Shown here one piece after another: positions 4,947-49,847 of a DNA stretch of 64,000 nucleotides. The stretch is from positions 18,228,001 to 18,292,000 of the forward strand of contig NC_135263.1 in the NCBI RefSeq assembly GCF_964204865.1. Reading direction: 5' to 3'. Positions within the stretch are counted from its first letter, which is position 1. Every line of letters starts with the position of its first letter. The DNA comes from Styela clava (taxonomy: Eukaryota). The notes beneath the pieces are model-generated. The model searched no databases, was not told the origin of the DNA, and was given only the letters and a program-made list of their open reading frames with translations. A program made the position numbers and the translations under genes.

Positions 4947-5552
4947 GCATGTGACATATCTCGAATTATGTTTTTTGTGTGAAATATGGCGAATGTAAAG
5001 AATTCTTATGCTTTTATGAATACCGGTAGTACGATGTGGACATAAGGTATTTATAACATATTGACATAAAAATGACTGTTATTTCCTAACTTTTTAATAT
5101 CGACTTGTACCTTTGATACTGCACACGGTAATTGGTGAGTCATATTATTGTTCCTAAGCCAACACCTATTTTCACTTTTGAGAGGAAAGGTTCACATAAA
5201 TGAGTTATTCCTATTGTCACCGCAACATACATTGCCATTTGCCCTAGACTTATCTCCAACAACATAATTTTGAAAAAAAAAAATTAGCTTTCCAGAACGA
5301 GTAACTCAAATCCGTTAATGCCTGGGGATCAATGACTTCAAGTTGTATACATTTCACCTCTTCCATCGGAATGTTGAATGAACACATGAAAATTTTATAT
5401 ATATATCATGTGTGGACTGCTTGTATTCAATCAAATTGACAACCCGGGCGTAAATTCCTACTACCGATTAAATTATGCCCCAAACTCGTAACGGAGCGTA
5501 ATACTACGTCAAAATTGCACGACAAACGAGAATGATATTTTTCCAAGCCAAA

Positions 5553-6135: not shown

Positions 6136-7003
6136 ATTGTTCTCGGTCTTTCATCACAGCGCGATATAATATGTGTCATTTGAACAAACACTTAAAAAAA
6201 GTTACGGGTTTTATTATAAATAGCTTGTTAGAGATCAGCGGGAAATATTTCCCGTGGGCCGCAAAAAAATCGTCCGGCGGCTCACATTATGCCATTTAAA
6301 GTTTGACATATGGAGAAATAATAACTGCTTATATATATATATATTGTTACAATTTTCATCTTGAAAAGCATAGTGTCTGATTAGATATTTTTATAAAGGT
6401 AACAAGCTTCTTGTATCTAATTGAGCATATATGCTATAGTATTCTGACACCAAATTGTCTTCGCGCACAGTAGGCCTACTACAAAGTGTGAACTTCCTCA
6501 TTTTTTCAAATTTTTCAAACGCTTCATGTGATCCAGCACCATGTTAACGGGTATGAGGTCGAAAAGAAATATTATTATGCGATTGGGGGGGGGGGGAAAT
6601 CAATTATATGGACTTCTATTTAAAAGCCGCAAAGGTGGAGATATTACGCGTCTTAAGGTGGTATAATCGCTATACCCCCTTTCTCCAATATATTATTCCT
6701 ACGCTTCCAACTCGTCCTTCAAAAATTTGCATCCTCGTTACCGCATCTAAATAAATCTTCCATCCAGGCTTGATTGAAGCAAGAAACGATTGCATATAGG
6801 TATAGTAGATTCGTTGATTTTAAAAAAACTTTTAAATATATGAATTTGCAAATTTTGGATATAAATTGGGCATCAATCCCACAGGTTTTTTTTCAAATGC
6901 AGTGTTTCCAGTTTAGAAAATATTCCATATTCAAAAATATCATTTCAGAGCGTATTCTAAATAGTTAATTTTATATTCATCCGATCTCCATATTTTTGTA
7001 GTA

Positions 7004-8033
7004 CCGTGTTTCCCCGAAAATAAGACTGGGTCTTATTATAATTTTTTTCTAAAAATTAACACTAGGGCTCATTTTCGGGGAATGTCTTATTGGACACGTT
7101 TAGTGGCCATAACGATAGTTTCAAAATTTTGTTGTTATTGTTATTTTCTTTCGTCATTATCATCAAAAAATCGCTTTTCTCTTCGAATACTGGACCAATT
7201 GCTTTGAAATTTTCAGTGGTTAAAGATAAAATTTTTCTCCAGAAGGCTATTACTTTTTTTTTCTCGCTATGACGTCATCAAAATTATTGCCATTGGGTGG
7301 CGCTATGTGTCCATATTTTTGAGCATAGCTCTCTTGTATTTTCATTTGTCAAAAACAAAATTACAAAGTAGAATAGCACGAGATTTTCAAATTTACAAAA
7401 TATGAATCCATACTTATACATAACACGTTTTTATTCTAAACAAGAGAGCTACGCACAAATATATGGACACGTCAGACCAGAGCGAATCAGTCCTTACCGG
7501 TACCTTTGACGCTACCGGTACCCTCAAAAAAGTTCCAGTAGCAAGAATTTTGCAGAATCAAAACGTACAGCCAGTCATGACACTGACTAAAATCCGTGTT
7601 CCCATGGATAAAAAATAATACAGCAAAATTTTAGACGAAATATCAAATTTCATAGAATTCACGCAAAATTTTGAAATAAATAAAAGTAATAGCCTTCTAG
7701 CGAAAAAATTAATCTTTAACCACTGAAAATTTCAAAGCAATTGGTCCAGTATTCGAAGAGAAAAGCGACTTTTTAAAAACGTGTCAAAGAACAAGAACAA
7801 GAACAACAACATAATATTGAAACGATCGTTATGTCCACTACGTGTCCAATAACGGCAAAAGATTGTTATCAATCATTTAAAACGTGTAGAAGAGATTTCT
7901 TGCTATTGACCAGGTAAAAAAATTGCGTCGTTCATTAGGTCTTATTTTCAAGAGAGGGTTTTTATTAAAATCATTCTTAAAATTCAGCCTAGGTCTTATT
8001 CTCAGGGCAGGTCTTATTTTCGGGGAAACACGG
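7004..8033. mobile_element. Tc1/pogo (Tigger-like) MITE carrying nested elements
   Basis: TA|CCGTGTTTCCCCGAAAATAAGAC ... GTCTTATTTTCGGGGAAACACGG|TA. Confidence 0.85.
7088..7852. mobile_element. Two head-to-head copies of a Helentron/HINE-like short element
   Basis: 7088-7337 (-) and 7439-7852 (+) share ACAAGAGAGCTA..ATATGGACAC starts and ..CGAT(C)GTTATG..GTGTCCAATAA ends. Family assignment is inferred. Confidence 0.6.
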
Positions 8034-8731
8034 TAGCAATGAGTGGCGATGCTACTTTTTATTCTAATTTTTGAAGTGGAAGTATTTATTTTTGAGAAAA
8101 AGTTTTTTGTTTTTCCTGTGGTTTTTACCTGGGTGCATCCTATTTTGCGGGAAGAGAACCCAAAGGTTGGTACCGCGACAAGGTTTCAGTCTCTGAGCTG
8201 CTATTTCTTATCGCATATCTGTAAGCTGCTGCTTTCACGGCATGAAGACTCTTCCTTGCACGAACCTTAATTACAAGCTGCATTAAATCTATTTCCCCTG
8301 AATCTGTATTGTTTTGAAAAATAATAACTAGTGTATTTATATACAACTACGTTATACACTTGCCAAAAAGTCTCAAACACAACATCGAACACAGTGTTTA
8401 TCAAATTGCTGGACTAGAGCAATGAGCATGTATATATGCTCATTGACTAGAGTGATTACTACCGGAAAATATGACCTTTTGACTCGAAATGCGTTGGCGC
8501 ACCGCGGTGTGAACAAGTTCAACACACTGCGTTTGCGTCTGCGTAGAAATCCTACGAAACGCATTGCGTTGGTGTGAATGGGCCTACGACGGGCAGCGTC
8601 GAACGGGAAATAGCCTATTGCGTACCGGTAGGGGTGATCAGTCGTTCTTCAGTTTTGGTGTTGATATTTTCAAAGGTATATTCAGGTAGTAGAGTTTAAG
8701 TGTCGGATTCCGTTGTTACCTGAAAGTTTCC

Positions 8732-11700
8732 ATGGATGCCAGACAGTTGATTGGCCCTGGCAAGGGTCGTGGAAAGGGAAGAGGTCGATCCAATAGTGGT
8801 CAAATGGGAGGTTATGATGGAAGACGTGAGTACTGATAGACCTCTACCGGTATATATAAATATTATATACCCATATTTCTGGGGTCTCCTGAAGTACGCG
8901 CCGCAGGTACTTCAGTACTTATAGTTGGCCTGTCTCGACAATTTTTGCATATCTAATATTTAACCCCCACATGACTACGGCATCCGGAAATTACATCACT
9001 GCATCACCATCGCGTCATAGAGCTTTCTAAAGTCAGAAAGTATAGTTACGATCGTCCGAAATGGCATCTGTGTAGCGATCTCTCTTTTATCGCTGTATCG
9101 ATATCGTTTCGATGAGAAATACGGTAGTCTAGCTTGCTCAACTTCGGATGATTGTCTGTGCAACCATCCGTATACTTTTGAGGGCCGTATTACGTCATTG
9201 CGACTTCGCAGTGATGTAATTTTTAGATGACGTAGTCATGTCTGCATGTGGGGGTTAGAAATTACACATGTAAATATTGTTGAGCCAGGCCAACTAGAAG
9301 TACCTGCGGCGCATACTTCAGGAGACCCTATTTCTGTATTTTGACTACCCCAAACTGCCAAAGTACTAGACCAGAAGAAGAATAGGTATGACATGAGCTA
9401 TTGGTGTTGAATTTTTAAATGGATAAAAAAAATCAAAGAAGTTACCACATTCAGACATTCCAGCATTTTGATACGCACAGACGCTTGACTTTCTGACTGT
9501 GTTCTGATGTTATAGACAAAAGATTGATATAAAATTGTAATGTATATTAAGAGAATTTCATATTGCTGTATTGCTCTACATGCTGACATGCAAACATGTC
9601 ACACAAGCGCAGAGACTCTGAAACATGTTGGCCTCACATAGTATGATAGTAGTTGATGAATTCAGGAATTTTTCTATTGATAATGAGTTAATGTATAACA
9701 GTATAAATTAACATACAAAATATTTTAACTTGGAAACTTATTTTTACAGATACTTCTTCTTCAATGTCCACTAATGCTAAAGCATCGGCGATCTTCGAAA
9801 ACACAAGAATCCTACATGCACAGGTAGCCCATACAACATAAATGAATAAGTGATAATGATTAGAGAAATAGAGTTTGAATGTAAATAAATCCAGGGCTTG
9901 TTTACGTATTTTGCATATTGACTTTGATAAACTTTTATGAAGTTAAAATTATGTTAATTAATGCTTATGTTGATATTTCAGTTCTATATCCAGTGTTCAA
10001 AAAAATAGTCATATTTCTACTGCAATGTGGAGACATGTTAAAGTATCGCTTGTCTAGATCATCTTGAAACTTTTTGGATTTTTTTTATGTTTGTTTACTG
10101 AAATAATTCTCAATATGTTTATACTTCATGAATCATTTTGAGTGTTCTTTTTACTTTTTCAATTGCATTTGTTACTCCTAAAATTAATTTTGCTTCCAGG
10201 CATCTCAGCAGGCAATGAAAAATCAAGATATGTATGAATCTTCATCGGAAGAAGATGATTTAGACGAAGATCAGATTTTGTCACAATTGATGAAAAATTA
10301 TAAAGGCATCAAATTAAATTACTTTAATATTATACTTAGAGCTGTAGCCAGTATTATGGTATTTAGTGAATGGTTTACCCCTTTTTACTGATCATTAATT
10401 TACATATAAGAATGAGCTGTTGTATGTCTATCATTTTTAATTTATGTTAATAAGAGTAAGAATATAACATAATTGTTTATCTTAATAAGGCTTTTCCTCA
10501 AATCATCAAAATCGCTAACTTTAATATTTATGTAAGAATAATTCTTTAAAAAAACTTAATTTTTATCTGTTACATGACTTGTGGCAAACTGTAAAAACTT
10601 GACAACCATTGATTTATCTGCTTTTGTTTTAGGTACATTGAATGGATCTGATGCAGATGATAATAATTCCATAAGTACCAGACAATACTTGTACGAAAGT
10701 TGTCAGTCTGGAGCAATAACATGTCTTGTTTGTATTTCAAGTGTAAAACGACAAGAAGCAGTAAGTAGCAGGGAACTTGAAGATTGTGATGATCTAATAT
10801 TTTCAGATAAAATTAAAATTTGTATTGACTTAGTCAAGCATAGGTGGATGGGGATCTGATCAAAAAACTTTTTCTTTCATTTAGATTTGGAATTGCTATG
10901 GCTGTTTTGCAACATTTCACCTGAGTTGTATACAGAGGTGGATAAGAGAAGGTATAGCTAGGAAGAGTGTTTTATCTGATGAACATTTTCCTAATAAGGA
11001 GCATCCTTGGTATTGCCCCAAATGCAGGTAATGCTAATTACAATCGGTATATTTTTTAATGAAACATTTCCATATTTACTTCTAGTGAGGTTTTTACTGT
11101 TTGTGAGTCAACAAGGAATTTTTTGGGTTCAGCATTGCCGTTTCAAGTCATCACATTGTGGGTTTCAATGAGGTTTGAGCCCGATATATGGAACTTGCAG
11201 TACTCCCATAGTGTGTGTACCTGGTTAGGGTCAGGCAATAATTTTATTCCGATTTTCCTTATTCAAGTTCGGGGACTGTCTATGTTAGACAAGTGAATAT
11301 ACCCCCTGCCCATAGGTTTCAGTCCCCTCAAACAACTTGGTACAAAATAGACGAGCAAAATTAGTTACCTCCATAAAATTTGGTATTATTTGAAGTCTTA
11401 CGAAAGGGACTGCCTGGCTGGATTATGCCTGACTCTGAGCAAGATTCAAAACAATTGATTGTTCAAATGCATTATTAATTCAGTTGTCACTTGTCAAGCA
11501 CAAAACTGACTGCTATTTTATAGTTTTCCTATCTTGAATTTCCGTTTATCTAACATAATATTCTTATATCAAATGTAGGTTCGAGTACAAACAACATGAA
11601 TGTCCGACTCGTTATATTTGTTATTGTGGAAAAGTTGAAGATCCACAATTCGATCCATGGTTGGTACCTCATTCATGTGGTGCAACATGTGAAAGGCTAT

Positions 11701-14700: not shown

Positions 14701-17700
14701 ATAAATTTTTAGTGTTTTCATTGTGTTTCCCGGTAACGTATTATTCTTTATGTGTTGTATAGTTATGTTTCATACTTTTTAAAGCCTTTTATAAAATATC
14801 ACAAAAATAATTATTGTATATTGTGGAAAATTCTGTGATATAAAGCCTTCGGGGTGGGGAGGGAACCTTGTTAAATTTATAAGATCATCATAGGCCATTT
14901 TACGCAGATATATCGTCTGACAATTCTATTTTTCATTGCACTAATCAATTCTCTTACTTATTTTTAGGTGTAAGAAACCGTGTAAGATTCCATCATCTTG
15001 CCATCACCCCACAAGACGACCACATAACTGTCATTTTGGTCCGTGCAAAAGATGTACGCAGGTAATTGCATTTGCATGTTTGATCTAAATAAAGCAGTGG
15101 ACATGCAGAATTAAAGGTATATTTTTGCATTAGTTTGAAAAATATTTGCATATACCGGTATATATATTTATATTGCACATAATTCAATTGCAATATTTTG
15201 AGACTTTAGTTATAATTGCATTATACATTTTCCTGACAATGATTAGATCACATATATATATTTATTATTTTCATTCTGTCTCTTTTTTCCATCTACTCCT
15301 CCATACATTCGATTATTTTGATCTTTTTTCGAAATACTGGTAATTGTTGGAATTGTTCTTGGAATGATTTGAAATATCTTACCAGTTGATCTTCACTATC
15401 AACATGTGAAAAAATCTACTTGCATTTCTAGGTTTGCAGTATTGTGATGAAATGTGGACATTCCTGCCCTGCTGATTGCCACGATGAAGTTTTAGTGAAA
15501 AATGAGGTAATTTCGGCATTTCAAAGGTCATTTTAGAGAGTGAATTGTTGATAGTAATATAATTTCATGGTCTGTTTTTTTAAGCAGGTCAAAGCAGCCG
15601 GACCGTGGGAATTGCCTTATCAATCTGAAACAACTATTAAGTGCATACCTTGTCCTCCTTGTAAGTCTCCTGTTCCCAAAGTTTGTCTCGGAGATCATGA
15701 AAGGTCTAATTTGCCATGTTTCGAAGCAAGGAGGTATTGCTGTGGCCGGAAATGTGGTCGTCTCTTAAAATGTGGAAATCATACATGTTCTCTCTTATGT
15801 CACACAGTGGAGGGTTCCTTAGATCAGAAAATGGTAAGATGTTATTCTCAAAATCAATTATAATAACTATCAGCAACAATCATACTTACATTGTCATTCA
15901 GACGTTATACATATCCAATTTTTTTTATCATTTTTCAATTTTCCAGTTGGAACTTTTATAAAAACATTTTTACATTTTTTGCAGGCTGGTAAGAATTGTG
16001 CTGCATGTGAAGAGCCATGTACAAAACCTCGGCCAGAAGGCTGCATTCACTCGTGTTCACAGCCTTGTCATTCTAACCCCTGTGAACCTTGTAAAAAACG
16101 TATCAGAAAAAGATGTCACTGTGGCCTTGTTATATTACATCACCTTTGCAGGTTTATTTTTGTTAATAAGTTAACATGATAAAATTCTGTCATTCACTTA
16201 CTTTTATGGAGTGTGGAAAGTGTTTGGCAAACATTGTTTTTTGGGTACTCCTGTAGTATGTGTACCAGGTGAGGGTTAAGCTATAATTCTATTATGATTT
16301 TTCCTAATTTAGTTCTACTAGGAGTCTGGGACAGTCTGTGTTAGCCAAGTGAATATACCCCCTGCCCATAGGCTTCGGTCCCTTTCACAACCTCATATAA
16401 TGTAGGCGAACTAAATTACTTACCCCATATAGGTATACATACTTCTGGAGCACCGTTTTTTGTTTGAATCATGATCACAACTAAAGATTTCCACTCAGTG
16501 GCCTGGTTTTCAACTTTGTAGCAAAGAAATATGATTGCACTCAAAATGTTGAACAAAACTTCAGCGTAACTGAAAGGGGATTCTATCCAGAAATATAGGA
16601 ATCACCTGTCAAAGCTTTCAATACAATAAACAAGTTATTCTAACGAAGCAAAAACGATTATTTTAAAATCAGTGGTGAACAATTTAATTCGTCTATTTTA
16701 TATCACTATTTTATCATATGGTATAGGAAACAACTTTCATTTTTCAAGGAGTACCTATTTGCCCGAGTTAGCTGAACTAAAATATGTTATTGTAATTTTC
16801 TCATTGCATTTTTAATATATCTTTTTTCTTTGCAGTGAATGGACAGCTGCCGATGACCTTACGAAACTTGAGATTGAGTCTTGTGGCAATAACTGTCCCA
16901 AACCATTATCATGCGATCATTATTGCACAAAGCTCTGCCACCCAGGACCTTGCCCTGGTCCAGAAACATGTACCAAGAAAATGATTATCAAATGTCCGTG
17001 CAAACGAAGAAAAAAGGTTTATTTTTAGATTCACATTACGATAAATCAAAATTTTTGTGAAGAAAGATTTTTTAACCTGAAGCCATCTTAAAACTGACAA
17101 TCTTTCTTTTTTGTTCCTTTTCTTTTTCATTTGTAAATAATTCACAGCAACGCAGTGCACAACTTTCTTCCACTTCTAACAAAAGTGCTGCATTGACAAA
17201 TGTTTTGTGTTATGGTCGTATGGTTGGGAAGCGATTGTTCATTCTGGCTATAAAAGATGATGATGTGACAGCATCGTAAACATTTATATCGCTTATTGTA
17301 CTTCAATGGAGCTTGACAATATTAACAATTTAATTCCTTATGATTTGGTTTCTGCGAGACTAACTACTTATGCTTCTTCTATGTTTTTGTGCCGGTGGAT
17401 CCGTATGCATATAATACAAAGATGCTGTAGCAAGAGTAAGGATAACTATCCTAATAACAATAATATGTTGTGTTTTGGTGTTATAGTTGCAAAATTTTGC
17501 TGAGTTTCATATTTTTAAAAATGTGGAAGAAATAACAACTCGTAAAAAAATGTGACTATCATTGATGAAATAATTGCAATGATCTTTACAAAAAAAGTTG
17601 CTGTATAATAACCATATAGTTTTCATACTGAATTAAGCTCAATTGTTGAGGTATATGTTATAATACCACTCAGAACATGATCGACTTTTTCATTTGATTA

Positions 17701-21633: not shown

Positions 21634-24600
21634 TCAAACAGGTGCAGAAACCACAGGTGCAGGTGACATGGATGGTGTACTATTTGTAACATCAACCTCC
21701 ATCCCACTACTGCAGTCAGAGTTCTGCCTTTCGATTTGTGAGGGCATATCTTCACAAAGGTTCAACTCGAAATTTGCAAGTTTCGCTGCAGCACATTTTT
21801 CACAGACATAATCCAACTCTCTTGCTTCTTCAGGAGATACTGAAACACAGACACAGTGGAACCATCCCTCACATCCTCCATCACATTGTAACCAATCGAC
21901 TTCTTCCCCGGTTGGTTGTTGGCAAAACACTGAGCCACCAGTAGCTTCTTTAACGGCACAAAATGCATATTCATCGTCATCAAAAGCAACAAAAGTATCA
22001 AGAACGCTTTGCTTTCCTTCACTTTTTCTCTTCTTCTTCTTTTCATGTTTTTTATTGTCTTTTCCGGAGAATGGAGTCCCATCGGTGGAATTACGCTGTT
22101 TCTTTTTCCTTTTCTCAGCAAAGTTAGTTATGGCTACTTCCTCTTTCTTTTTCCGTTTTCTGTCGGCTTCTTTGTCAAGACCGTTAGATTTGAGTATTGT
22201 TTGGCTAGCTTCTGATTCACACAATTCTAAAAATTTTTCATCATTAATAGGTTGACTTGCCTGCAATATTTTCCATATCTGCTGAGTTTCATCCAAAGAA
22301 ACTTCCAGCAAATCTCCTTCCATCATCAACTCTTCCAGTATCGTTTTCATCTCATCTGGGAGATCAATAAGAGGACCTTTTAAAATTTCCTCAGTTTCCT
22401 TTCTGAGTTCTTTTACTTCTAAAGAAGGTTCATCAACTACTTCAGCTGAAGCAACATCCTCTTTGGTGGAAGTAATATCTTCAGAATGAACTGGATGAGG
22501 TGGTGTTTGTTCAGACTTTTCTTCTTTTGAAGTTTGTTCGTAATCAGAAACTGCAATTGGTTGTTCAATAGCATTATCTTTTTTGTGATTATCATCAACC
22601 TTATCCATGTCTTTTATGGATGGCTCATCAGTAGTGCTGGTAATAACCGCTTTCACTTCAGTATCCGGTTGATGCGACGGATTGTTTTCTATTTTTGAAG
22701 CTGGATTAGTGCTCTCTACTTCAGCATTGACTTGAGATTGGTGATGATTTGAAGCACATGCTATCATTGCCAAAACTTCTGCTGCCTCCATTACATCTTC
22801 TTGTTCAGTATCTGTCTTTGATGCAGCAGATAGAAGAGCATCAACACCTGAGGAATCTACAGTCCTTGTCTCTTCCTGTGGACATGATTTTCGAAGAACA
22901 CTATCAATTGTATCATTAATTGATTCAATTGAAGACATTCTTCTAGCAGTGGCAGATAAAGCTATTTCCGAGTTGTGTCCGTTTGTGAGGGAAATTTTAG
23001 GGACATCGGTTGAAATCTTTTTTTCTTGTTCCTGCCATAATTTTTCATTTTCTTTCATCTTCTTGTTTAGTTTTTTTATTATTGCTGCATACTCAGGGGC
23101 TTTTAAAATATCCCTTGCACGATCCTGCCAACTCATTGCACGTTCTGTCAAACACTGTAAAGCCTCACCTTCACGAATCCGAACAGGCAATTTCTGGAGT
23201 TGAAGCAAAAGAGATAAAATAACCTCTAACCGTGGTCTCCTTGAGCGATGACATAAAGGACATAAAAATTTTAGCTCATAGACCTGTTGTACTTTGCTTT
23301 TTTCTTTATTGAATTTAATCGGTGGCACACAAGAAGTATGAAACCAGTCATGACAGAGTTCACATTGAAGCATGAACCCGGATGATGGACGTTTGCAAAC
23401 ACAGTACGAGTCGTTTTCAGATTTGACTTCAATATTTGTAGGTGTTATTGTGCTCTTTCTATTGTTCCGCGATCTCATATCTTTCATGACTTCTAGTTCT
23501 TTTTCTTCCATGTCCTTGAACTTTGCTACTACCTCAGCTGGGTCAATAGGATTTTTTATATCAAAATTATCCGTTTTGGCCCATTTTTCAATCATTTGTT
23601 GCTGCTCTGTCTGTGCATCTTTGATTTTTCTTCGCATTGCTTTCAAGTTAGTCTGACCCCTATTTTCTGCAGAACGAGGACTCAATACTTCAAACAAAGA
23701 GAATATTGTGTTTTTCTTTAGGAAAGCTCGACAAGTTCTCTCTTTCCATTCTTGTGCTGCTTCAACTTGTGTGTTTAAAATTGGTAACTGAGACAGTTTG
23801 ACTTCCATAGAATTTGCTTGTAGAAGGAGAGCTTCCAAAACCTCAAGATATGGATAGTAATCCTGATTATGAATGGTATGCAACTTTTTCTCCCAAATGT
23901 TTGCTTTTTCAACCACTTCCTGTAGCTCAGCACAATGTATAAGTTGCACTGGAACATTTTGGGACTCGGATGTGATAACTTCTGCTGTTTTTAGACTGCC
24001 TTTTTCCTTCATTTCGAGAAAGCTTTTAGCCTTATCCTCCCATGCTTCTGAAAGATTGAGAAGTTCCTGCAACTCAGCCATTGCACGTTCAACAGCAGGC
24101 CTAGGTGACACAGACACTCCAGAATCTATCAACTTCCTTAATTGCTCCAATGTTATCAATGATGGTGGAGGATCACAATCATTTATTTCATCGTCCAAAA
24201 GGAGACAAGATCTGACTTCTTCTAACCACTTTGCTTGTTGTAGTGCGTGGTGTAGTAACGTCACCTGTGGAAGTTCCAGATCAAAATCTAGTGAATCCTC
24301 TATCAAAACAGCAATGTTATGACTGCAAGGTTCTTCCTCTTGCAGAATAATTTCAGTTTGAGTAACAAATTTTTCAATTCGCTTTATATAATCAGAAACC
24401 TGATCCAAGTTTGGAATTGTGCATGGTAAACCTAATAGTTGTAGATAAAAAGCCCTTATTTCTTCCAGCGTCAATAAACAAGTATTTGGATGAGTTATAA
24501 TACCAGCTGTGGAATGAATTTCTTTTTGCCTAGTCCTGTGCTTTCTAACCACAACAAGCTGTTGGGCAACTCGTGAACACTTTTCGGCTTCCCGTACAGC

Positions 24601-27084: not shown

Positions 27085-27169
27085 ATTGAATTTTTACATA
27101 CAGCAGCTTATTAAGATCTTTAAATATGAAAACAAAATTCAGAAAAATTAATATGGATCTAATTAGATA

Positions 27170-27486: not shown

Positions 27487-28499
27487 AAGAGATATTTCAA
27501 TTTCCTTAGCATGTCAATTGAAAAACAAAATCATTTGGTTGAGTTGTAATTCTGTTGTGTATTTGCACAATCTTGTACATAAATTAAGAATTTGATCACA
27601 TTGAGAAGATATCAAAATGCTTTACTAAAAATTTAAATTGTCAATACATCATTTGCATTGAATATCATGTACCGGTAGGCTTACCGGTAAATAGTTTTAT
27701 GTTTTTGTATATTTCCATGAGACAACTTCGCTTTGAATAAAGCCGGAAAAATATTCAACCATCACTGTCATCAAATATTCTTACAACTTCAATTTATTGG
27801 AACAAAGATTATTCAATTTAGTGATATTTAAAAATGATCATTCATCCTGATATGTTGATTTGGCTAACTAGCAGAAGCCTAAATAAGGAGCTTACAAAGT
27901 GGGACAAGGTATCTGATCCAATCACAGAAATACTTTTTTCATCTGTAGTTTATTAATTTTTATGTGTTGACATGATTCGGGTTGTAAACATTCCATTTTA
28001 CACCAAATTTTAGTAAATTTGACAAGAATTACCAAGATGGAATTGGTACACCAGTCATGAGGAAAGCAAATTTTTATTAAAATCAACGAACTCCTGAATT
28101 TGTTTGATTAAGATTATAATTGACTAATATTACGAATGATTATGCCTAAACTCAACCCAATTCTAAACTCAAAATTTCAAAGTACTGAAGTATAAGGGTG
28201 GTCTGTGTTTATCATCCTTCATGCTGGTTAATATTATAAAAATGTTTTACTTTTGCACTGCTGAGGCAGGTATTTAAGAGCAAATTTCATACTAGATAAT
28301 AAGGAAGCAACAATTTCAGTATATACAGCTAAACGAAGGCGATAAATTCAGAAATCTCAGTACCCCGTATAGCATTTTTACGCTTCCTTAACGACTGACT
28401 GAACGGCGTCGGAAAATCGTAGATGAATTTAAATACACATCACACAGTCACAACATCGCCGTATATAAAGGATCTCACGAGAGAACGCGCACAATCAGA

Positions 28500-29034: not shown

Positions 29035-31578
29035 ATGCCTTACGCCAATCAGCCTACAATCGCAATCACGGAACTTACGAAAGACAATGTGAAATTTGTT
29101 ATTGAAGATACAGATCTCAGTGTTGCAAATTCACTCCGCCGGGTATTTATTGCAGAGGTGAGAATTTCTGATACCGGTAACCGAGAGGAACAGGATGGAG
29201 AACCCGGAGAGTTGGCTAAACCAAAGTTGGGTTCGCAGGTTCGAATCCCATGCAGGGATGGTTATGTGCGAGAGGATTGCTGGACTCCTCGCCGTCGTTG
29301 GGTGGTTCACGTAACCGCTGGTCGGTTACGACTTCCTCCACCACCAAGTCCATGCTTCCGAAAACAAACAATATAACTAATCCCATACCCGACTTGGAAT
29401 GGTAACCGGACGAGAGGCCGTGGTTCGCCATATGGATAAGCCGTCTTTTCGGTTTTCCTCTCCCCCGGGATAAATATGTAAATCCTATCCTATCCTAAAC
29501 TTGATATGAGTTTTGAACATGCCACATAAATGCACTAACGTGATGTAGGCAATTCAATATGAAAAAGCTGTCTTATCGACTATCCTCTCCCCCTGGATAA
29601 ATTTTGAAGTCCTATCTTGTTGTAACATAGAACGACTTAGAGATACCGTACTCCGACACAGTCTTTAAGGGTATACCGGTACCCTAGCTGCTGAATTACC
29701 TTATTTTTTTATTGCCCATATCGGAAGCCGTGGAGCCACCCTTTTCTGGCGAGGAGTCTAGAAATCCTCTTGCACATAATTATCTCCCACAGGATAATCA
29801 GAGGTGCGGTGGCGAGCGAATTTCTAATACTTAGCACAATAAATCACATTGTCTAGTCATACCCGACACTCGCTTTCTATTTGCTTCCATGGCCATTACA
29901 GTCGTCAACTCCTAAGCTATCCCAGAGTCATCCTCAACTTTTAACCTTTGCACATTTTAATAACTCATTCATTAATAACTTCATTCTTCTACCTGTACGC
30001 ATGCATGAAATACAAATGTCTATAAGCATGGCATAGACTCAACAATAAAGATTACTAGAGTTCATGTTTCAATCTTATGAACTGGACTATCGGTGAATTA
30101 AAAAGTAGTGAAGTGTTATCCATTCTAATATTCTATATGAGACATGTTTCTTTGAAAAATTGTTTGTTTGTTGTGACTGCCCGCCTCACATTACTCTATT
30201 TAAATATATTTTAAGGTTCCCACACTTGCGATTGACTGGATTCAAATTGAGGAAAATTCTTCAGTATTGAATGATGAGTTTTTATCACATAGGATTGGAT
30301 TGATTCCATTAACATCCGATGAGATAGTGGACAAAATTCAGGTAAATAGCAATAAGTAAAATTCAACCAAGCATATTTGAACGGGACCTATAGCCAGCCC
30401 ATGCGATTAGGTCATTTTGTCTGTTCTCTATCTCTCATTGTTCCTCATTCTATGTATCATACCTGGTTAGTTGATGTACTACGGTAATTAATACATAAGA
30501 TTATTCAAACCAAAGTGATCATTTTTTATTTTACTGAAGAACGTATTTATCCTGATTTCAGTACTCAAGAGATTGTATGTGCGATGAATTCTGCCCAGAA
30601 TGTTCAGTGGAATTTTATCTCGATGTCAAATGTACAAGTGAAAGCACGCGACAAGTTACTACTCGTGATTTAATATCCATGAATCCAAAGGTAAAATGGT
30701 ATTCTTGAAATCAAAATTATCCATTAGATGCTATTTTTTTATTTTATTTATTCTGCAGTTTCATGAGAAATACACATTTATTTATTATGGAATGAACAAA
30801 CACTATCTGACTTTTCTACCCAATGTCTCGGTCATAATCATATCCAAATATTTTTTTCCAGTTTAAAACATTCCCATTATTTTGCTGGCTAATAGTGATT
30901 GCATAAAACATAAACATTTTGTGTAACAAATGAATTGAATGCCGTTTGCATGTTAAACTAAGGTTGTTCCAGTTACATCGAGAAGTAGAGGAGACGAGGT
31001 TGAAAATTATGGAGAACAAGATGACATACTGATTGTTAAATTAAGAAAAGGACAATGCCTAAAATTCAAAGCTTATGCTAAAAAGGGATTTGGTAAGCGG
31101 GTTTCTTAATGTCTGTCTACTGTATAATGCTTTCGATGAGAAACATTCGTTGGATAAATGAAACTTCAATATAAATATAGGAAAGGAACATGCTAAATGG
31201 CAAACAGTTTGTGCATGTGCTTTCGAATATGACCCAGATAACGCACTTCGTCACACAACTTATCCAAAACCCGAAGAATGGCCTAGGAGCGAACACAGTG
31301 ATCTCACAGATGATGATGATAGACATCAAGCAGAGTAAGTTGTCGTGGCTTGGTTTTATTAAAACCACAATGAGCTACAGTAGCCATTAAATTTATTTTT
31401 GTTCAGATTTGATCCGAATGGCAAAGCAAACAAATTTTTCGTCAATGTGGAATCTACAGGAGCCATAAAACCAGAGAACATCATTCTGTCAGGGCTCTCT
31501 GTTCTTAAGAAAAAGCTCAGTGACCTCCAAACACAGCTAAGCCATGAACTGCAGCAAGATGGACTAACTATCGCATGA
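29035..31578 (+). CDS. POLR2C: RNA polymerase II subunit RPB3 (6 exons)
   Basis: [41 protein letters not shown]|[16 protein letters not shown]|[18 protein letters not shown]|..[14 protein letters not shown]|[18 protein letters not shown]|..[35 protein letters not shown] introns. Confidence 0.97.
29200..29497 (+). mobile_element. tRNA-derived SINE in POLR2C intron 1
   Basis: B-box GGTTCGAATCCC at ~29238; same body as the 27170 copy; (CCTAT)n tail. Further fragments at 29720-29840, 41455-41580 and 50640-50740. Confidence 0.82.
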
Positions 31579-33661: not shown

Positions 33662-35299
33662 TCAGTCCTCAGCACTTTTTTGATGTGTTAATTCCAGTAT
33701 ACGAATCTGATCTGTGATTTGACTTTGGGCCCCATCTCCTCCCGGAGTCTGGTGCAATTCTATCAGTTCTTGACGACTGTCCATTTCGTCAGTATCATCT
33801 ACATCAAACTGCTTGTGTGATGGAGCATACACTGAGAGTACCAGGAAAACATAAATATTCCATAACCCATAAACTCCTGTGAAAAAGGCAGAGTTAACCT
33901 CAACACGATGATCTCCAAAATCCAACATTCCATCATATTTTTGTGAAAGTATGTAAAACACAATTGTAAGGGCAGCAGTAGATATTGAAAGTATCATAAG
34001 GAGTCTAAACCTGAAGACGACTGTCTTGAAATTGTTCGCTTGTATAGAAGTAATGAATCTCTGCTTGTATGACATTATGCGAAAAACTTTAACAACCATG
34101 TAGCACAGCAGTAGAAAATAAATGCAACCAGCTACACTGGCAACCACAATGAGAATCATTGCAAAGTTGTGGTGCGTCCAAACTGTGGAACAAGGATTCA
34201 CCAACTGCATCCCACGTTCAGCAATATCAAAAGCTAACAGAGCAAACAGAGAAATAAAAATAGCACTCAAATGAAAACGATATGTTGAAAGCTTGTTGCG
34301 TTGTGAAGGATTCACCATATGTTCTCCCGTAAATATAATCCAAAAACCAAGCAGGATACCATAAAAGAAGCCCTGGCGAATATCTGTGAAGAATAGCATC
34401 CAGGGAGCTTCTATAAATATCGAAATCAATTCAATAGGTATATTCAAGAATAGGATTGAAATTCCCAAAGAGAATATGGCTTTTTCAATCAGTAGAGGTT
34501 TTCTTTCAAGAAGTTTGATTCTTCTCCAGAACCAGATTACTGGGAATATCATTAAGACCGTCATAACTGACTTGAGACTTGTCCACACCTGAGTAAAGCC
34601 ACCATTTTGATGTATTGCAATCACAGACATTTCTTTTGCATTGCCGAACTGATTGTACATACCACCATCTTCAGTAACGTCAACCGGCAAACGAAGGTTG
34701 ATCAGATAACGTTTATGTGGAATTGAGCCCAACTGAAACAGGTGCAGCAACTCACAATCATACTCATAATCTTCATGTTCTTCATCAAAATCATGATTGA
34801 AATTACATTCAAGTATGCGATCTTCTTCACATCTTGCCAAGGTTTTCCACGCCAATTTATCTCTTCTAACCGCAGAACTGTCCTCATTACTGTACAATAT
34901 ATGAATATCCAAACGCATCGGTGCATGTGAAACATAAGGATTATTAGTTTTATATGTTATTTTCACTTGAAGTAGGGCAAGTAGGTATTGAAACCATGGT
35001 GTCATTGTCATAATTCCAAGATTCCTCGGAATATGTGCTATAAGAACAAGATCGCTAGGATCTAATCCTGTAACTTTGACGCCTTGAAGATCTGTAACTG
35101 GGTCACAATTCTGCCTAGTGACAACACCAGACTTGTTTCCTTCGGGTATACAATTTGTCATAATGTGTTCTTGAGCACGAGCTGGAGGAGGAGCAATTAA
35201 ACCACCAATCAGAAAAAATATGATTTGCACAACCAGAAGGAACATAAATAACATCACAAGCTTTCGGGTTGAAAGAATTTCAATAACTTTTCCCGCCAT
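33662..35299 (-). CDS. WLS: Protein wntless (Evi/GPR177/MIG-14), single coding exon
   Basis: MAGKVIEILSTRKL..FFLIGGLIAP, IHQNGGFTQVW, DIRQGFFY..FWIIFTGEH, ERGMQLVNP, NSAFFTGVYGLWNIYV..YAPSHK. Confidence 0.98.
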   Translation of the reverse strand: MAGKVIEILSTRKLVMLFMFLLVVQIIFFLIGGLIAPPPARAQEHIMTNCIPEGNKSGVVTRQNCDPVTDLQGVKVTGLDPSDLVLIAHIPRNLGIMTMTPWFQYLLALLQVKITYKTNNPYVSHAPMRLDIHILYSNEDSSAVRRDKLAWKTLARCEEDRILECNFNHDFDEEHEDYEYDCELLHLFQLGSIPHKRYLINLRLPVDVTEDGGMYNQFGNAKEMSVIAIHQNGGFTQVWTSLKSVMTVLMIFPVIWFWRRIKLLERKPLLIEKAIFSLGISILFLNIPIELISIFIEAPWMLFFTDIRQGFFYGILLGFWIIFTGEHMVNPSQRNKLSTYRFHLSAIFISLFALLAFDIAERGMQLVNPCSTVWTHHNFAMILIVVASVAGCIYFLLLCYMVVKVFRIMSYKQRFITSIQANNFKTVVFRFRLLMILSISTAALTIVFYILSQKYDGMLDFGDHRVEVNSAFFTGVYGLWNIYVFLVLSVYAPSHKQFDVDDTDEMDSRQELIELHQTPGGDGAQSQITDQIRILELTHQKSAED

Positions 35300-35469
35300 A
35301 TTCAGTGTGTCTTTTGGAAACTGGTTTCAAAACTGGTTTTAAAAATCTTAACTAATTATTTGCTGTGTAATTGAAATTGTTCAAAAACGCAAGGTCAAAC
35401 AATAAACCTGCAATCTATTTAAGGTTAAAAATCACTATTGCCAGTACAATGCCAGATTGCTGTATTGTA

Positions 35470-35945: not shown

Positions 35946-36126
35946 TGCAGTTTTAAGTATTCTGTGGCGTCTGCAGCTGCCGCAAAACCATAGCGGTATT
36001 TCCATACCGTGGCTGCCATGGGGGGAGCTGACTTGGATGACCGTATGGTCGTATCGCTCCCTCCAGTCTTTACCATAAACAGTGTTTATTTATTTGTATT
36101 TATGCTTTCATATTTATATTTGTTTT

Positions 36127-36313
36127 GGTTCCATTACATTTGAACCCATGACAATTGCACCTGTATGCTATTGCACCTATGGAATTTTTTTTGTTTCACG
36201 GATAGTTAAACCCATACTAACCCTAACCCATGGGTTTTAGCACCCGCATATAGATTGAACCCGTGGATATACGCATGGGTTCAAATGTACATGGGTTCAA
36301 ATGTACGGTCACC
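36127..36313 (+). mobile_element. 187-bp non-autonomous derivative of the MULE at 487-4946
   Basis: Left end GGTTCCATTACATTTGAACCC, right end GGGTTCAAATGTACGGTCACC; 9-bp TSD ATTTGTTTT at 36118-36126 and 36314-36322. Confidence 0.92.
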
Positions 36314-38207
36314 ATTTGTTTTAGTTGACGAATCAATAAATCTCTCAATCTCTCTCTGCTACGGCCAAACCTATGGCGACCAATGATGGCAACCATTGAG
36401 GTTATATACACCTCAATGATGGCGACTGACTTTTTAGCTGCCACGAACCAATGACGAGCTGCCATTACCGCGGCAGCAAATTAAAACCAATGGCAGGTAA
36501 ACTTTTGCTGCCGTAACCACGACAGGCGGACCGTGAAGCCAGGGCTGTCCCATATCCCAGATAGCACAACTACGTTGGGCCAACGTTATAATCCGCCGGC
36601 AACCGTTGTACGCGGTTTTACAACCATTTACCATGGTAAGGCCATGATTGGCATTCAACGAAACACGCTATTACGCGATGAAATGGGCGCGCGATTCGAA
36701 TATAGCACATGAGGTCGCCATTCATTTTGGCGGTACTGTATTTCGTAATCGATATCCTGTTGCGAGGTTTTTGCCGTGGATGGGACAGTGAAATTGAACT
36801 TTTAATGCTGTCATAGTATGAATGGCGAAAGTAGAGATAGTTGTAACGTGTAAGTTAATCTCATGGTACCGGTACAGTACCCTAAGTGCGTTGTCAGATC
36901 ACGGTTCATAAGGGTGATACGGTACCGGTACCATACCGGTAAAAGTTACATAGTTATCCCTGGACACCGTAGGTACCGGTAACGACAGAACGAGATGAGG
37001 TACCGGTACGGTAGGTACCGTACTTGGTCTTTTGGCATTTTTTGTTAAACTTTCTGAGGTTGCCATCTCTTATTTACCAGTATTCGTTATCGAGTACCGG
37101 TAGTCTACCGGTAGGCTATTGGTCCTTCATCCCTAGATATGATTTTTTATATTTACTTTATTTGTCTAAGTGCAAACATTTCCGCAGCCCAATTTAATCC
37201 AGTAATCTGAATAGTTGCACATTTGTGAACCTTCTGTCTGATGATTTCAACAAATCTAAATACAGATCTCAATTGGCTGAAATTTAAAATATGTTTTAAC
37301 AATTGCCACAATCAAACTGAAACTAAAATTTGATGTTTTTTGGGTGAAGAATAGCTCAAGGATTATTGTTTTCCCTTTTTGTTTTTATAACACTTTAAAT
37401 AAAATTTTTTTTTTAAAGTATAACTTTTTACGCCACACATGCGAGATGCGACATGGCCCGCCAGTCTAGGTGCGCAAAATTTTTGCGCGCGGTCCGAGAA
37501 CTTTGCCCAACCCTGCTCTAGTTCATATTTTCAGCTTTGTTGAGAAATAAATTACTGATTTCTGAATAATATCTATTTTGTTTTAAAATTCAATAGAATT
37601 ATATTGGGTATATATTAATATGATTTATTTCCAGTATATAGGCCTATGCTATGTAAGCTTACCCAACCAACCTTAATTAAGTGTTATTATATTTTAAAGT
37701 GAATTGGAAAGTAGACCGCTAGCAAAAAAGATTCGGGCGACTGGGCGAAGCCCATCTCTGTACAATGACTGCCAAGTGTGCATGCAACTGTGCAATGCCC
37801 AGCGACTCTAAAAGCATGAAGTATTGTACGACACATCCTTTACAAATATTTGGACATATTTTGTGTAATATCCATTTTTTTCCGTTCATTCTAAATAATT
37901 ATTACCGATTAGATATTCTGTCAAGTGTCAATATTACCATTGTAAGTTTAATGATATATACCAATTTTATAATAGGCCCTATGACAATGGACTGGAAAAT
38001 TCACCTGCTTCAATTCCCTCTTTCACGCAATCATACACTGTGTCATTTCAAGCATCTCAATGTTTCAATGCGGACAATGCCCAAAACAGGTGTTTTTGTT
38101 TTATAGTTTGATAGTAGCTCCTTGCATATCTGTGCCATAAAATATTGCACAATACTGCTAGATATATCGGTTGAATAATTACCTAGTACAACATCATGTG
38201 GTTAATA

Positions 38208-38668
38208 CAGTATTTTCCGGCGAATAAGTCGCCTTTCTAGACCCAAATTTTTGGCCTGATTTTGGGGGGGGGTCGTCTTATTAGGCGAGTATGATCATTT
38301 TCATTTTTTTTGTCGCCTTATTATTGAATCCGGGAAATAAAATATCTTCGGCGATAGCATCCCCCACGTCCTCATCTGGTTAGTTTAAATAAATCGACAT
38401 TCTCGTGCTGCGAATCTGGAATTTCAATGCTGTGATTATCATATATGCATTATCATATATGGATTGAATATTACGCTACAAGAAAAAGTCATTGAAGGCT
38501 ATTTTAACCAATGCGCAAACGCGGCGACCGCTCGAAAGGCATTGCATGGTAATTTAAGATTCCCGACGCTGATGCGATTTTACTACCCCGACTTATTAAC
38601 CGGTTATATGCAAAAACCCATTTTTCAGGCTTAAAAACAGGCCTCGTCTTATTCGCCGGAAAATACGG
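38208..38668. mobile_element. Tc1/pogo MITE nested in the CACTA element
   Basis: TA|CAGTATTTTCCGGCGAATAAG ... CTTATTCGCCGGAAAATACGG|TA. Confidence 0.85.
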
Positions 38669-39721
38669 TAATTAATATTAATGAAAAATTTATATTCTGG
38701 TAATTAGTATAGGCCATTCGTTCACGTTTATCATCTGAAAGACAATCACGTACTATACATTGGGTAACACTAACTTGATTTTCAGAGATCAAGCCATGCT
38801 CCAATCCAGTCCATGGCAAAATTGTTGGGACAGGCGGTAGAAACTCTTATGCTACAAGCTACGGCATCTGCAACTTTCCACTGATTATAGTGTGGACTCG
38901 GACATTTGTCTGATTACATTTTGATCCAGAATACATTCAAGGATGAAAAAATGGCTCGTAAGTTAAATATTTTTATAGGCTGATTACGGACACTTTATGG
39001 CGGTGGTTCCCAAACTTTTTTTTCCGCGACCCCAATTTTTGTAAAATCACAGACTACAGATACTTGCGACCCTACAACGAGAAAACATTAAAAATCAATT
39101 TATTCTATTCTGAATATTCTATTTAATCATTCTGATGAAAATCGACTGTAAGTTTGCGGGGCGTTGGTGTAACATGGTTGTACTTAACTGTTTAGTTCAG
39201 TGGTTCCCAACCTTTTTACCCCAGCGGCCAGCGGGCAAGCAAAATTAATTTAAAAGAGTTCGCTGACCGGTAACACATGCCATCGTATGAAGACCACGAT
39301 GTAAAAATCTCTGAGATTCAGAATATTTGTTTAGTTTTAGTACAATGTTAAAATATTGCAGATTACTCCATAATTAATTCGAAAGCTAAACAGAACATGA
39401 AAGTAAAATAGGTGAAAATACCTTTGGTGGGTCTCATCTTATTGAGTGCCTTTTATTTTTTGTCGTTTTGTTTTTCGCTTCGAAATTATGTATGAAATAC
39501 AATATGCCCCATATTTTCGCTTTGAAGATTATTTAAATGTCTAAATACGATCCGATTGCAATATTAAAATTGTTCACTTTTATACGAATGCAATGTGGAC
39601 AAAACACATATGTGTATATTTTAGAGTAGATACTCGCGATAATTAACATAGAGCTTTTGCAACGGATGGAAACCTTTTCATTAAATGTATTCTCATAATT
39701 GTGCTTATTTACTCATTCCAG

Positions 39722-39880
39722 ATAGGATATTTGTCAAGTCTCGGAGGTTGCTCCAAGAAAGACTGGATTGGAGAATCATGAGCTCAGTTATAACAAATTT
39801 ACTCGCCCGCTCTTTCAACTGTGCAGGACGCGGTGGATAAGAAGGAGTGAGTGGGACGCCCTTAGTTTCTGCTATTAAAG
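39722..39880 (+). pseudogene. Decayed exon of a CACTA accessory (DUF4806/BEN-like) protein
   Basis: Bounded by AG..GT. Translates IGYLSSLGGCSKKD/WRIMSSVITNLLARSFNCAGRGG*..LVSAIK with one frameshift and one stop. Resembles the L..IGG....VRRIM..L.TN.LA..FNW.GR.GK pattern (recognised from memory). Confidence 0.65.
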
Positions 39881-41639
39881 GTATGTAATATGTTTATCAT
39901 ATTGTACCACCATCTTTCTCTGCTCTGCTACCCTCTTCTATTTTATAAGTACAAGATTATTTTGACTCCAAATCAGCTTAAGATAATTCATAAGGGAAAT
40001 GAACAAAAATTGATTAAATAGAATCTGACAATCTGGAGTGAAAACAAAACCTTAATTGAGATTAAAGCGTAAAGAATATAAGGTTTTGCCAAAAAGATGC
40101 CTATCGTGTTCATGAATTAAATTAAGTTACACACACACAACAACAACAACAGAGATATAATAAAATAAAAACAGGCGAGAAAATTTAGATAAGTTGGGTA
40201 GTAAACAAAATGTACTTGCCAGTTGCCACACCATTCATTTTTATCATTATGATTGTCAAATTGAATAATGATTTTGTAAACAACTGTGAACAGTAAAGAA
40301 ATTGAATGTAGATTTTGTATACAAAAGTGAACAGTATAGAAAAATATTTATTAAGGAGATATCGCCAAGCTGATTATGGTTAGTCAATTGCCAAATTGCC
40401 AATCCAATGTTGCCAGAGTTTGGTGCATAATGGGGAACAGTGGTTTTCGAACTTATTTGTATCATCGCTCCCTTACGGTACTTTTTACATTATCATCCCC
40501 CCCCCCCCCCCCTAGCACAACAGCAAATGATGAAGTTACAATTAAATTTATTGTAAATCAATTAAACAAATAGACTAATCATGGTGCATGATGTTTCTAA
40601 TAAGATAGATGAATTTCAACAAGGAATATTCCAAGACATTTTAGTCAGATAAAATCTCAAATCATCATTATTCCCTCCAACAAATATTCCCCTCAAAACA
40701 TTGTCTACGCCCCCCTTGCGGAATCAAGAATTTCTGTATTTCTTAATTATTATCGTCTTGTCAATGTAAGCTTCACTCACACATTTGCGACTGCAGAATC
40801 TTGGCTTAAGATTCCTACTCTGAAAATTTGTTGGGATGCAGTCATTCAGACTAGGCTTTGAACTCTGGTGCTGTAATTTGCTAATACTGCAATTTAACAC
40901 AGAATTTTTATATTTTTCAGCTCTGGATGATCTGGCAACGAATTCTGATTAATTTTATTACATGTATACATATTTGTAAAATAAAGACATTTTGTTATCT
41001 TTTGTATTTTATTATATAAATAATGTTAGATTAGTGGGAAATTTCTATGTAGTATAGATCCATACCCTGTCTGTACAACACATCGCCTAACTTGGCCCGA
41101 CCATATACTACGATTGTATTACAACGTGTCGCCTACGTAGGCCCGGCCATATGTCACAATTGTGTTACAACGTATCGCCCACATTGGACCGGCCATATTT
41201 CATGATTGTGTTACAACGTATCGCCTACGTTGGCCCGACCGTTTGCCACGGTTGCATTACAGCGAAAGGACCGACGTTGGCCCAGCGGCCAAATCTTCGC
41301 TGGAACATGGTTGTTCGCCATTATTGGGCCGGTGGTTCGAACAACGTTCGGCCATGGTTGTTCCGACGTAGTTGTGCTATCTGGGATGGTGATAAATATT
41401 GGGTAAGTTGGAACGTTTTTCTCATGGATAAAGCTTTGATACAAACAAATAACTAACTAATCCCATACCCGACATGGAATGGTAATGTAACCGGACGAGG
41501 GGCCATGGTTCGCCATATGATTAAGCTGTCTTATCGACTTTCCTCTCCCTCGTGATCAATATGTAAATTCTTATCCTCTTATCCCTTTTTTTAAGACAGA
41601 GAAAATCCACGCTTTCATATTGGGTTTTTCCCATTCGCC

Positions 41640-49580: not shown

Positions 49581-49847
49581 GTAGTCAACATGACCTGTGC
49601 CGTACCGGTAATTGCTGAATTGCCGTGTTCTAAATACAGAAATAGGCTATACGGTACCGGTACCGGTCTGGAATAGACTGATAGACGAATAGGTACCGGT
49701 ACCAGTCCATCTTTTCAGATGCATGGAAATTACCGTATCGTTTGGTCATAGAATAAACACTTGCCACTCGCTCCAGCGCTCTTGGATGTACCGTACCTAC
49801 TACGGTACCGGTATATCTTAGAAAATTCGCTCAGAAACAGAGTGGAA

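What the first reader, a model, noticed from the sequence alone, without database searches (positions are those of the whole stretch)
36865..37115. Clusters of the palindrome (G)TACCGGTA(C) mark DNA just downstream of promoters and first splice donors
Seen: about 7 copies plus partial forms in 250 bp here, and a second cluster at 49600-49812 after the putative GHITM first donor. Single or double copies occur at 8622 and 8845 (NFXL1 5' end), 27668-27690 (KDM5 5' intron), 29171 and 29674 (POLR2C intron 1), and 7495-7520. I saw none in the long CDSs. Spacing is irregular and copies overlap (GGTACCGGTACCGGT), so this is not an ordinary microsatellite. Inference: either a recurrent micro-insertion signature in open, unmethylated germline chromatin (for example transposon footprints or repair-templated palindromes) or a lineage-specific promoter-proximal element. 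It could serve as a TSS predictor.
Basis: partly seen in the sequence, partly recalled or inferred. Interest (0 to 1): 0.7.

Follow-up and report, generated by a model that had tools for sequence, protein, structure and literature searches.

The report
Transposon exit scars crowding gene starts
The palindrome TACCGGTA is far too common in this animal genome because six letters keep appearing at plain TA sites, most likely as the scar left when a resident pogo-type jumping gene cuts itself out, and the scars pile up just ahead of genes and differ between individuals.

Summary
Real: 21 copies in the window (0.5 expected), 30,656 genome-wide (control word 4,861). It is not a conserved promoter element. 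The 36865 cluster lies inside one copy of a 4.8-kb non-autonomous DNA transposon. Across 24 copies of that element, and between individuals in the unique GHITM 5' region, the word comes and goes as TA versus TA-CCGG-TA, with sister fillers CCG/CGG, GGC/GCC, CAG and GTC stacked in chains. This is the form of IS630/Tc1/mariner excision footprints. Scars are about 3 times the genome mean in the 3 kb before 40 housekeeping-type genes. Weak points: no site was seen in all three states (empty, filled, scarred), scar flanks match neither family fully, and no RNA data confirmed the transcription starts. The scan reached this reading earlier in four other genomes. Known mechanism; unusual scale and promoter bias.

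The parts
36867..36879 (.). Scar chain TA-CCGG-TA-CAG-TA
   Evidence: Sequence; this TA shows six filled states and 2 empty copies among 24 host copies (column 378)
36918..36941 (.). Scar chain TA-CGG-TA-CCGG-TA-CCA-TA-CCGG-TA
   Evidence: Sequence; variable among host copies
36974..36981 (.). TA-CCGG-TA, present in all 24 host copies and extended in 5 of them
   Evidence: column 512
37001..37022 (.). Scar chain TA-CCGG-TA-CGG-TA-GG-TA-CCG-TA
   Evidence: Sequence; variable among host copies
37095..37118 (.). Scar chain TA-CCGG-TA-GTC-TA-CCGG-TA-GGC-TA
   Evidence: Other copies have only the first unit, or first plus GGC (L002)
36556..41385 (.). Host: non-autonomous DNA transposon, 20-bp terminal inverted repeats CCC..GGG, 2-bp target duplication; EnSpm/CMC-like by recalled features, family not tested
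   Evidence: 2-bp duplication in 11 of 12 other copies where both ends were found
36720..36855 (+). Promoter-like stretch in the host's left end (two YY1-like words, an ATG at 36822, a GTAAGT donor-like word at 36850); inferred reason for the hot spot, untested
   Evidence: Sequence only; motif names recalled
38206..38670 (.). Nested Passer-type MITE, TA|CCGTATTTTCCGGCG ends (left end mutated to CAG in this copy)
7002..8035 (.). Passer-type MITE, TA|CCGTGTTTCCCCG ends; holds the copies at 7495 and 7513
49603..49813 (.). Scar cluster in unique DNA just after a putative first donor of GHITM; four segregating unit indels (49652, 49691, 49731, 49808)
   Evidence: Unique in genome; alleles in runs X1, X2, X6; GHITM frame 51159-52220 matches Bax1-I
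27670..27689 (.). Two scars (TA-CCGG-TA-GGC, TA-CCGG-TA) in the inferred 5' intron of KDM5
29172..29179 (.). Scar about 14 bp after the inferred first donor of POLR2C
   Evidence: weak RNA_pol_L match
29674..29681 (.). Scar in unique DNA of inferred POLR2C intron 1
8623..8630 (.). Scar upstream of the inferred NFXL1 start
   Evidence: zf-NF-X1 matches below cut-off
8845..8852 (.). Scar about 16 bp after the inferred first donor of NFXL1
5021..5028 (.).
15153..15160 (.).

Best explanation
TACCGGTA is a plain TA that has gained CCGG plus a second TA, most likely as the excision footprint of TA-targeting pogo transposons whose ends read CCG..CGG. Shown: the word is a presence/absence indel at TA in repeat copies and alleles; matching elements with TA duplications exist; scars are chained and enriched before genes. 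Inferred: an element inserts at TA and duplicates it; staggered cuts leave 2-3 terminal bases on each flank; end joining gives CC+GG (or two CCG overhangs paired by their CG), or the trimmed CCG/CGG. Inferred: open germline chromatin near gene starts and in the host element's left end attracts insertions, whole elements are lost or removed by selection, and the small scars stay. Inferred: each scar makes new TA-C and G-TA half-sites that suit the Fot-like family's G-TA-C preference, so chains grow; slippage adds some tandem units. Other fillers (GGC/GCC, CAG, GTC) would be scars of other families at the same hot spots.
For: De novo TA to TA-CCGG-TA changes in unrelated flanks that slippage cannot give, e.g. 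TCGT|TA|TCGA, CCAG|TA|TTCG, TATG|TA|TGCT, TAAT|TA|AGTG. Outside the host family 23 of 79 non-tandem 4-8-nt indels duplicate a TA against a 2.6% null; 8 have CCGG, CCG/CGG, GCC/GGC or GTC fillers. In 507 bp of unique DNA 4 of 4 segregating indels are unit-sized at these words, beside 2 clear substitutions. Only 9 of 115 sites could come from duplicating a flank. Of 16 XY-CCGG-X'Y' palindromes in 390 kb, TA is 7.7 times expected and the commonest. Sources: Passer-type elements with CCGTA ends, TA on both sides, 440-aa BrkDBD/HTH_Tc5/DDE_1 DD35D frames, 2,061 ends against 49 control; a Fot-like family at 11 sites, 99.9-100% identical among the 4 compared, G before TA in 16 of 22 flanks, with empty paralogous sites showing a single TA. 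Passer inserts at TA in AAGTACTT, favours 5' ends and active promoters, and leaves 0-4-bp footprints (PMC9976928). Scars: G before TA 34% versus 19% local background; 28 of 218 flanks carry another unit versus 1.0% background.
Against: No site was seen as empty, filled and scarred. The nested MITE at 38206-38670 was never found excised. No whole CCG element sits at a hot-spot TA in 24 host copies. Scar flanks lack the Passer residents' A at -3 (36% versus 71%, p 1e-6) and have less G at -1 than Fot-like sites (34% versus 73%, p 0.0008), with no excess of A at -2. Scars outnumber resident elements about 25 to 1. Scars are not enriched within 1.5 kb of Fot-like insertions (4 versus 2.7). No source element was found for GGC/GCC or GTC/GAC. 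Allelic indels have no outgroup, and three of the four could also be slippage. The footprint letters of Passer are in a figure that I could not see.
Confidence: 0.84

Rival explanations
1. Replication slippage or microhomology duplication of GGTACC/CGGTAC hexamers builds the palindromes without transposons.
For: GGTACC duplicated gives the word; slippage-compatible sites are 9 of 115 versus 0.8% of background TAs; 10 of 21 CCGG indels are exact tandem duplications; 5 of 99 gaps are exactly 6 bp.
Against: 106 of 115 sites and 11 of 21 CCGG indels cannot arise so; mixed fillers (GCC, CAG, GTC) in one chain are not copies of a neighbour.
Confidence: 0.05
2. A transposase-linked process that adds element-end bases at TA without a full insert-and-excise cycle (aborted or instantly reversed integration, or an excision-biased transposase) writes the scars directly in open chromatin.
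For: About 25 scars per resident element; 43 filled states in about 505 bp across 24 copies only 2.4% from consensus, with no whole element caught there; scar flanks differ from both resident target profiles.
Against: Ordinary hopping plus selection against long inserts predicts the same; whole elements do insert with TA duplication; extinct families could explain the flank mismatch.
Confidence: 0.08
3. The word is a selected transcription-factor site or promoter element.
For: Enriched 2.9-fold in the 3 kb before 40 genes and 3.7-fold in the last kb.
Against: Position and number change between alleles and repeat copies; 24 of 40 genes have none within 3 kb; unrelated fillers share the same 5' peak.
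Confidence: 0.03

Closest known systems
Sleeping Beauty / Tc1-mariner excision footprints (TACAGTA, TACTGTA and trimmed forms; bioRxiv 10.1101/659086, passages; PMC4378557, passages)
   Same: TA duplicated around 0-4 bases taken from the element ends; a spectrum of trimmed forms; the CAG filler seen here is the canonical one.
   Different: The main filler is the 4-base palindrome CCGG; the scars are natural, number in tens of thousands and stack in chains, whereas SB footprints in tumours were 100-200 per sample.
Passer (PS) family of pogo (PMC9976928: passages, section 21, supplement hits; PMC7386202: passages)
   Same: CCGTA ends, short inverted repeats, TA duplication, BrkDBD + HTH_Tc5 + DDE_1, DD35D, 440 aa, 2.2-2.3 kb; published bias to promoters and 5' ends; 0-4-bp footprints.
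   Different: Resident copies here sit in T-A-n-A|TA contexts rather than the published AAGTACTT, and scar flanks do not match them.
Fot-like family of pogo (Spfr-Fot-like row of PMC7386202 supplement file 3)
   Same: Ends CCGTAAAACGGGGTGA, TA/TA, HTH_psq + DDE_1, DD35D, about 3 kb.
   Different: Here 11 sites of near-identical copies with a G-TA-C target; its footprint was not observed.
Genome-wide excision scars of DNA transposons in rice (PMC4423477, passages)
   Same: Natural excision polymorphisms concentrated near genes and outside coding sequence.
   Different: Rice excisions are mostly deletions with filler DNA (8 of 94 perfect); here the product is a fixed short word repeated thousands of times.

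Membership tests
ITm (Tc1/mariner/pogo) excision footprint | TA duplicated around a short filler, absent in the empty allele | tested here: met
ITm (Tc1/mariner/pogo) excision footprint | Filler independent of flanks and equal to the terminal bases of a resident TA-flanked element | tested here: met
   CCGG/CCG/CGG in unrelated flanks; CCG..CGG ends; one CAG-ended element at 58814-60466. Not met for GGC/GCC and GTC/GAC, whose sources were not found
ITm (Tc1/mariner/pogo) excision footprint | Same site seen empty, filled and scarred | tested here: inconclusive
   Empty and filled seen for two Fot-like sites and one Passer site; no scar at those sites
ITm (Tc1/mariner/pogo) excision footprint | Scar flanks carry the element's target preference | tested here: inconclusive
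   G at -1 enriched as in the Fot-like family but weaker; Passer residents' A at -3 absent
ITm (Tc1/mariner/pogo) excision footprint | Produced by the transposase in an excision assay | not testable with these tools
   Needs a bench assay
Passer (source element) | DD35D triad | tested here: met
   D173, D281, D317; spacing 35 in L088
Passer (source element) | BrkDBD and HTH_Tnp_Tc5 before DDE_1; 400-500 aa | tested here: met
   440 aa
Passer (source element) | Short inverted repeats ending CCGTA with TA duplication | tested here: met
   compared
Passer (source element) | Placement in the Passer clade on a transposase tree | not tested
   No tree built
Fot-like (source element) | HTH_psq + DDE_1, DD35D, ends CCGTAAAACGGGG, TA duplication | tested here: met
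   the two frames are probably joined by an intron, which was not tested
Fot-like (source element) | Placement in the Fot-like clade on a tree | not tested
   No tree built
EnSpm/CMC (host element) | Terminal inverted repeats with 2-bp target duplication | tested here: met
   11 of 12 copies and the window; PMC12730594 gives 2-5 bp for the group
EnSpm/CMC (host element) | CA..TG termini | tested here: not met
   Ends are CCC..GGG; PMC12730594 says CA..TG in most cases; CCC ends in animal EnSpm are recalled only
EnSpm/CMC (host element) | CMC transposase in an autonomous partner | not tested
   No long frame in this copy; no partner sought
Microsatellite / slippage repeat | Each gained unit copies an adjacent unit | tested here: not met
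   106 of 115 sites and most variable host sites fail
Conserved cis-regulatory motif | Kept between alleles and paralogues | tested here: not met

The most novel reading that the evidence does not exclude
In this animal, insert-and-excise cycling of low-copy pogo elements is a leading source of new mutations in promoter-proximal DNA, on a par with or above point mutation there; the scars feed their own growth by creating preferred targets, and their density is a heritable, sequence-only record of open germline chromatin in which each filler names the transposon family.
Probability: 0.4. Interest if true: 0.7.

Novelty: new variant of a known kind. Interest (0 to 1): 0.45.

Why it matters
It turns an apparent promoter motif into a mutation signature, a warning for motif discovery and open-chromatin motif calls in such genomes. 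If the scale holds, past transposon traffic is far larger than resident copy numbers suggest (about 25 scars per element), 5-6-bp scars are a main kind of standing variation in first introns (4 unit indels beside 2 substitutions in one 507-bp test), and scar density could map germline-accessible DNA in species without chromatin data. The near-identical Fot-like family is a candidate active transposon with a G-TA-C target.

Tried and rejected
CpG level: TACCGGTA counts in four CpG quartiles of 780 random 500-bp bins were 6, 6, 4, 8, no trend. A YY1-word proxy for start sites gave only 17 sites and no pattern. No RNA holder listed; runs X5 and X6 are guessed RNA contigs and did not fix any first exon. 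The first read-laying was swamped by repeats. The second species run X9 did not cover the GHITM cluster, so no outgroup. Search for the excised state of the nested MITE: 0 matches. Search for three-state sites with 36 Passer-type and 11 Fot-like empty-site probes, and 120 kb more of one tandem array: only empty paralogues. Sources for GGC/GTC fillers: L075 reads better as TAG..CTA with a 3-bp duplication, L129 as an 8-bp-duplication element; 25 HTH_Tnp_4 loci gave no ends. Confinement to one TE family rejected: 20 of 25 random and 46 of 63 gene-side copies are outside repeats detectable in my fetched set (this mask undercounts repeats). Literature searches listed no paper on TACCGGTA as a natural genome-wide footprint; one search showed only 30 of 509 papers, and most subscription journals are not searched.

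Full report
Observation. The seven copies at 36867-37113 and the four at 49603-49813 are there, and the window holds 21 exact TACCGGTA against 0.52 expected. It is the only strongly C/G-containing word among the top 8-base palindromes. Genome G000 (377 Mb) has 30,656 copies against 4,861 of the reversed control, 81 per Mb, so this gene-dense window is four times the mean. The word is clustered: 16 of the first 99 gaps on C1 are under 200 bp against 1.5 expected. Earlier scan notes call this genome a sea squirt; I did not test that.

Where the focal cluster lies. A search with 36700-37200 gave 69 matches from 40 scored candidates, mostly 85-96% identical. The repeat starts sharply at 36556 and ends at 41385, with 20-bp inverted ends CCC..GGG and an AT duplication. 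Of 16 other copies checked, 12 gave both ends and 11 have a 2-bp duplication. So the cluster is 310-560 bp inside a non-autonomous DNA transposon, 1.2 kb upstream of the Wntless frame.

The word is an insertion at TA. I aligned 24 of 28 fetched copies over the first 530 bp and 25 over the next 1,150 bp; the others lacked an anchor. Copies are 2.0-2.4% from their majority sequence, but differ by many 5-6-base indels that duplicate a TA around CCGG, CCG, CGG, GGC, GCC, GGCC, CAG or GTC. After collapsing chains, the first segment has 18 variable columns (several are alignment neighbours of one site) with 43 filled states in about 505 bp; the second has 6 columns with 9 states in about 1,143 bp, one column being the end of a nested MITE. 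The hot spot is thus a fixed part of the element, shared by copies on many contigs. Several events cannot be slippage: TCGT|TA|TCGA, CCAG|TA|TTCG, TATG|TA|TGCT and TAAT|TA|AGTG each gained CCGG+TA. Raw Illumina reads of other copies show the same indels, so they are not assembly errors. With the host masked, 23 of 79 non-tandem 4-8-nt indels in other repeats duplicate a TA (null 2.6%); 8 have the short fillers above, and many of the rest belong to a 7-8-nt class.

Alleles. The GHITM cluster is unique DNA. Contigs of three other samples show four indels in 507 bp, all unit-sized at these words: 6 bases missing at 49652 (X2, X6), GGTACC added at 49691 (X6), 5 missing at 49731 (X1, X2), CGGTA added at 49808 (X1); two clear substitutions lie in the same stretch, and a third is in a repeated part. 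The 49731 event is TA versus TA-CCG-TA with no neighbouring unit; the other three could also be slippage. Direction is inferred, since no outgroup covered the site.

Sources. A DDE_1 search gave 126 matches. One group has TA|CCGTATTTTCCGGCG ends, 2.2-2.3 kb, and a 440-aa BrkDBD/HTH_Tc5/DDE_1 frame with DD35D: Passer by the features in PMC9976928 and PMC7386202 (passages and supplement rows). With its MITEs it has 2,061 exact ends against 49 control, about 1,000 elements; two MITEs are in the window. A second family, TA|CCGTAAAACGGGGTGAC, 2.9 kb, HTH_psq + DDE_1, DD35D, matches a Fot-like row of PMC7386202; it has 22 ends at 11 sites (23 matches, one unrelated) and the four copies compared are 99.9-100% identical. 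One copy sits in a host element at the place of window 39631, where 8 other copies including the window have a single TA.

Mechanism. Tc1/mariner-type cuts are staggered and leave 2-3 terminal bases on each flank; repair gives TA-filler-TA with trimmed variants (bioRxiv 10.1101/659086, passages). For CCG ends this predicts CCGG (CC+GG, or CCG overhangs paired through CG), CCG and CGG, the forms seen; the data cannot separate the 2-base from the 3-base model. Passer favours promoters, 5' ends and expressed genes and leaves 0-4-bp footprints (PMC9976928, section 21 and passages); the footprint letters are in a figure I could not see. Chains are common: 28 of 218 flanks carry another unit against 1.0% of TAs. 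I infer that open chromatin and scar-made G-TA / TA-C half-sites both draw repeat visits.

Promoter bias. For 40 Ras and ubiquitin-conjugating genes chosen by domain start, the 3 kb before the domain hold 28 copies in 120 kb (9.8 expected from the genome mean; random sample 25 in 390 kb, p 4e-6), the last kb 12 (3.3 expected) and the 3 kb after it 7 (9.8 expected). 16 of 40 genes have a copy, against 19 of 117 random tiles. CCG/CGG, GGC/GCC and GAC/GTC also peak in the last kb. Copies are also frequent 5-7 kb upstream, probably at neighbouring genes, and true start sites are unknown, so the claim 'just downstream of the first donor' is supported only by the window's own inferred exons.

Against. 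No site was caught in all three states. Scar flanks (212 sides) have G at -1 in 34% (background 19%) but A at -3 in only 36%, against 71% for 68 Passer-type ends, and are weaker in G than Fot-like sites; a mixture of families, hidden decayed chains and chance words explains part but not clearly all of this. Scars outnumber resident elements about 25 to 1. Scars are 2.5 times expected beside Passer-type residents (10 versus 3.9) but not beside Fot-like ones (4 versus 2.7). Sources of the GGC and GTC fillers were not found.

Verdict. A real feature, best read as natural pogo excision footprints, with slippage as a minor helper. The mechanism is established; the scale, stacking and promoter bias were not found in print in ten searches. 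I had reached this reading before seeing that earlier scan notes give it for four other genomes and report a three-state site for a Fot-like element in this genome, which I could not locate.

Noticed in passing
Host copies L003-L028 and other repeats: A second indel class: 7-8-nt insertions that duplicate 5-6 flanking bases around a 2-3-nt filler (often CAG/CTG or GGC/GCC), about 17-20 distinct cases per scan; likely scars of another cut-and-paste superfamily.
   Followed up: partly
G000:C6:21823670-21841296 (L241, L242): The Fot-like element forms a six-unit tandem array with a 2,937-bp period between one pair of TA-flanked outer ends.
   Followed up: no
window 21634-27093, 33662-35326, 51159-52220: KDM5 (1,819-aa frame), Wntless and GHITM have coding regions without introns, with inferred introns only in the 5' leader; several Ras and UBC genes are also single-frame.
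   Followed up: no
window 471-4998: MULE element with about 490-bp inverted ends built from 16-bp repeats, with MULE and FLYWCH frames; a related MITE lies near 36000-36500.
   Followed up: partly
window 58814-60466: TA|CAG..CTG|TA element of 1.65 kb, a candidate source of CAG/CTG fillers.
   Followed up: no
L218-L233: Further near-identical pogo-type families with TA|GTAGG and TA|GGGG/GGGT ends and long open frames (97-99.6% identical copies).
   Followed up: no
L011-L028: Many host copies carry a tandem duplication of about 170-190 bp whose joint lies in the scar chains (window 36920-37110).
   Followed up: no
L169-L172: An HTH_Tnp_4 element family carries internal TACCGGTA words, with unit indels between its near-identical copies.
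   Followed up: partly
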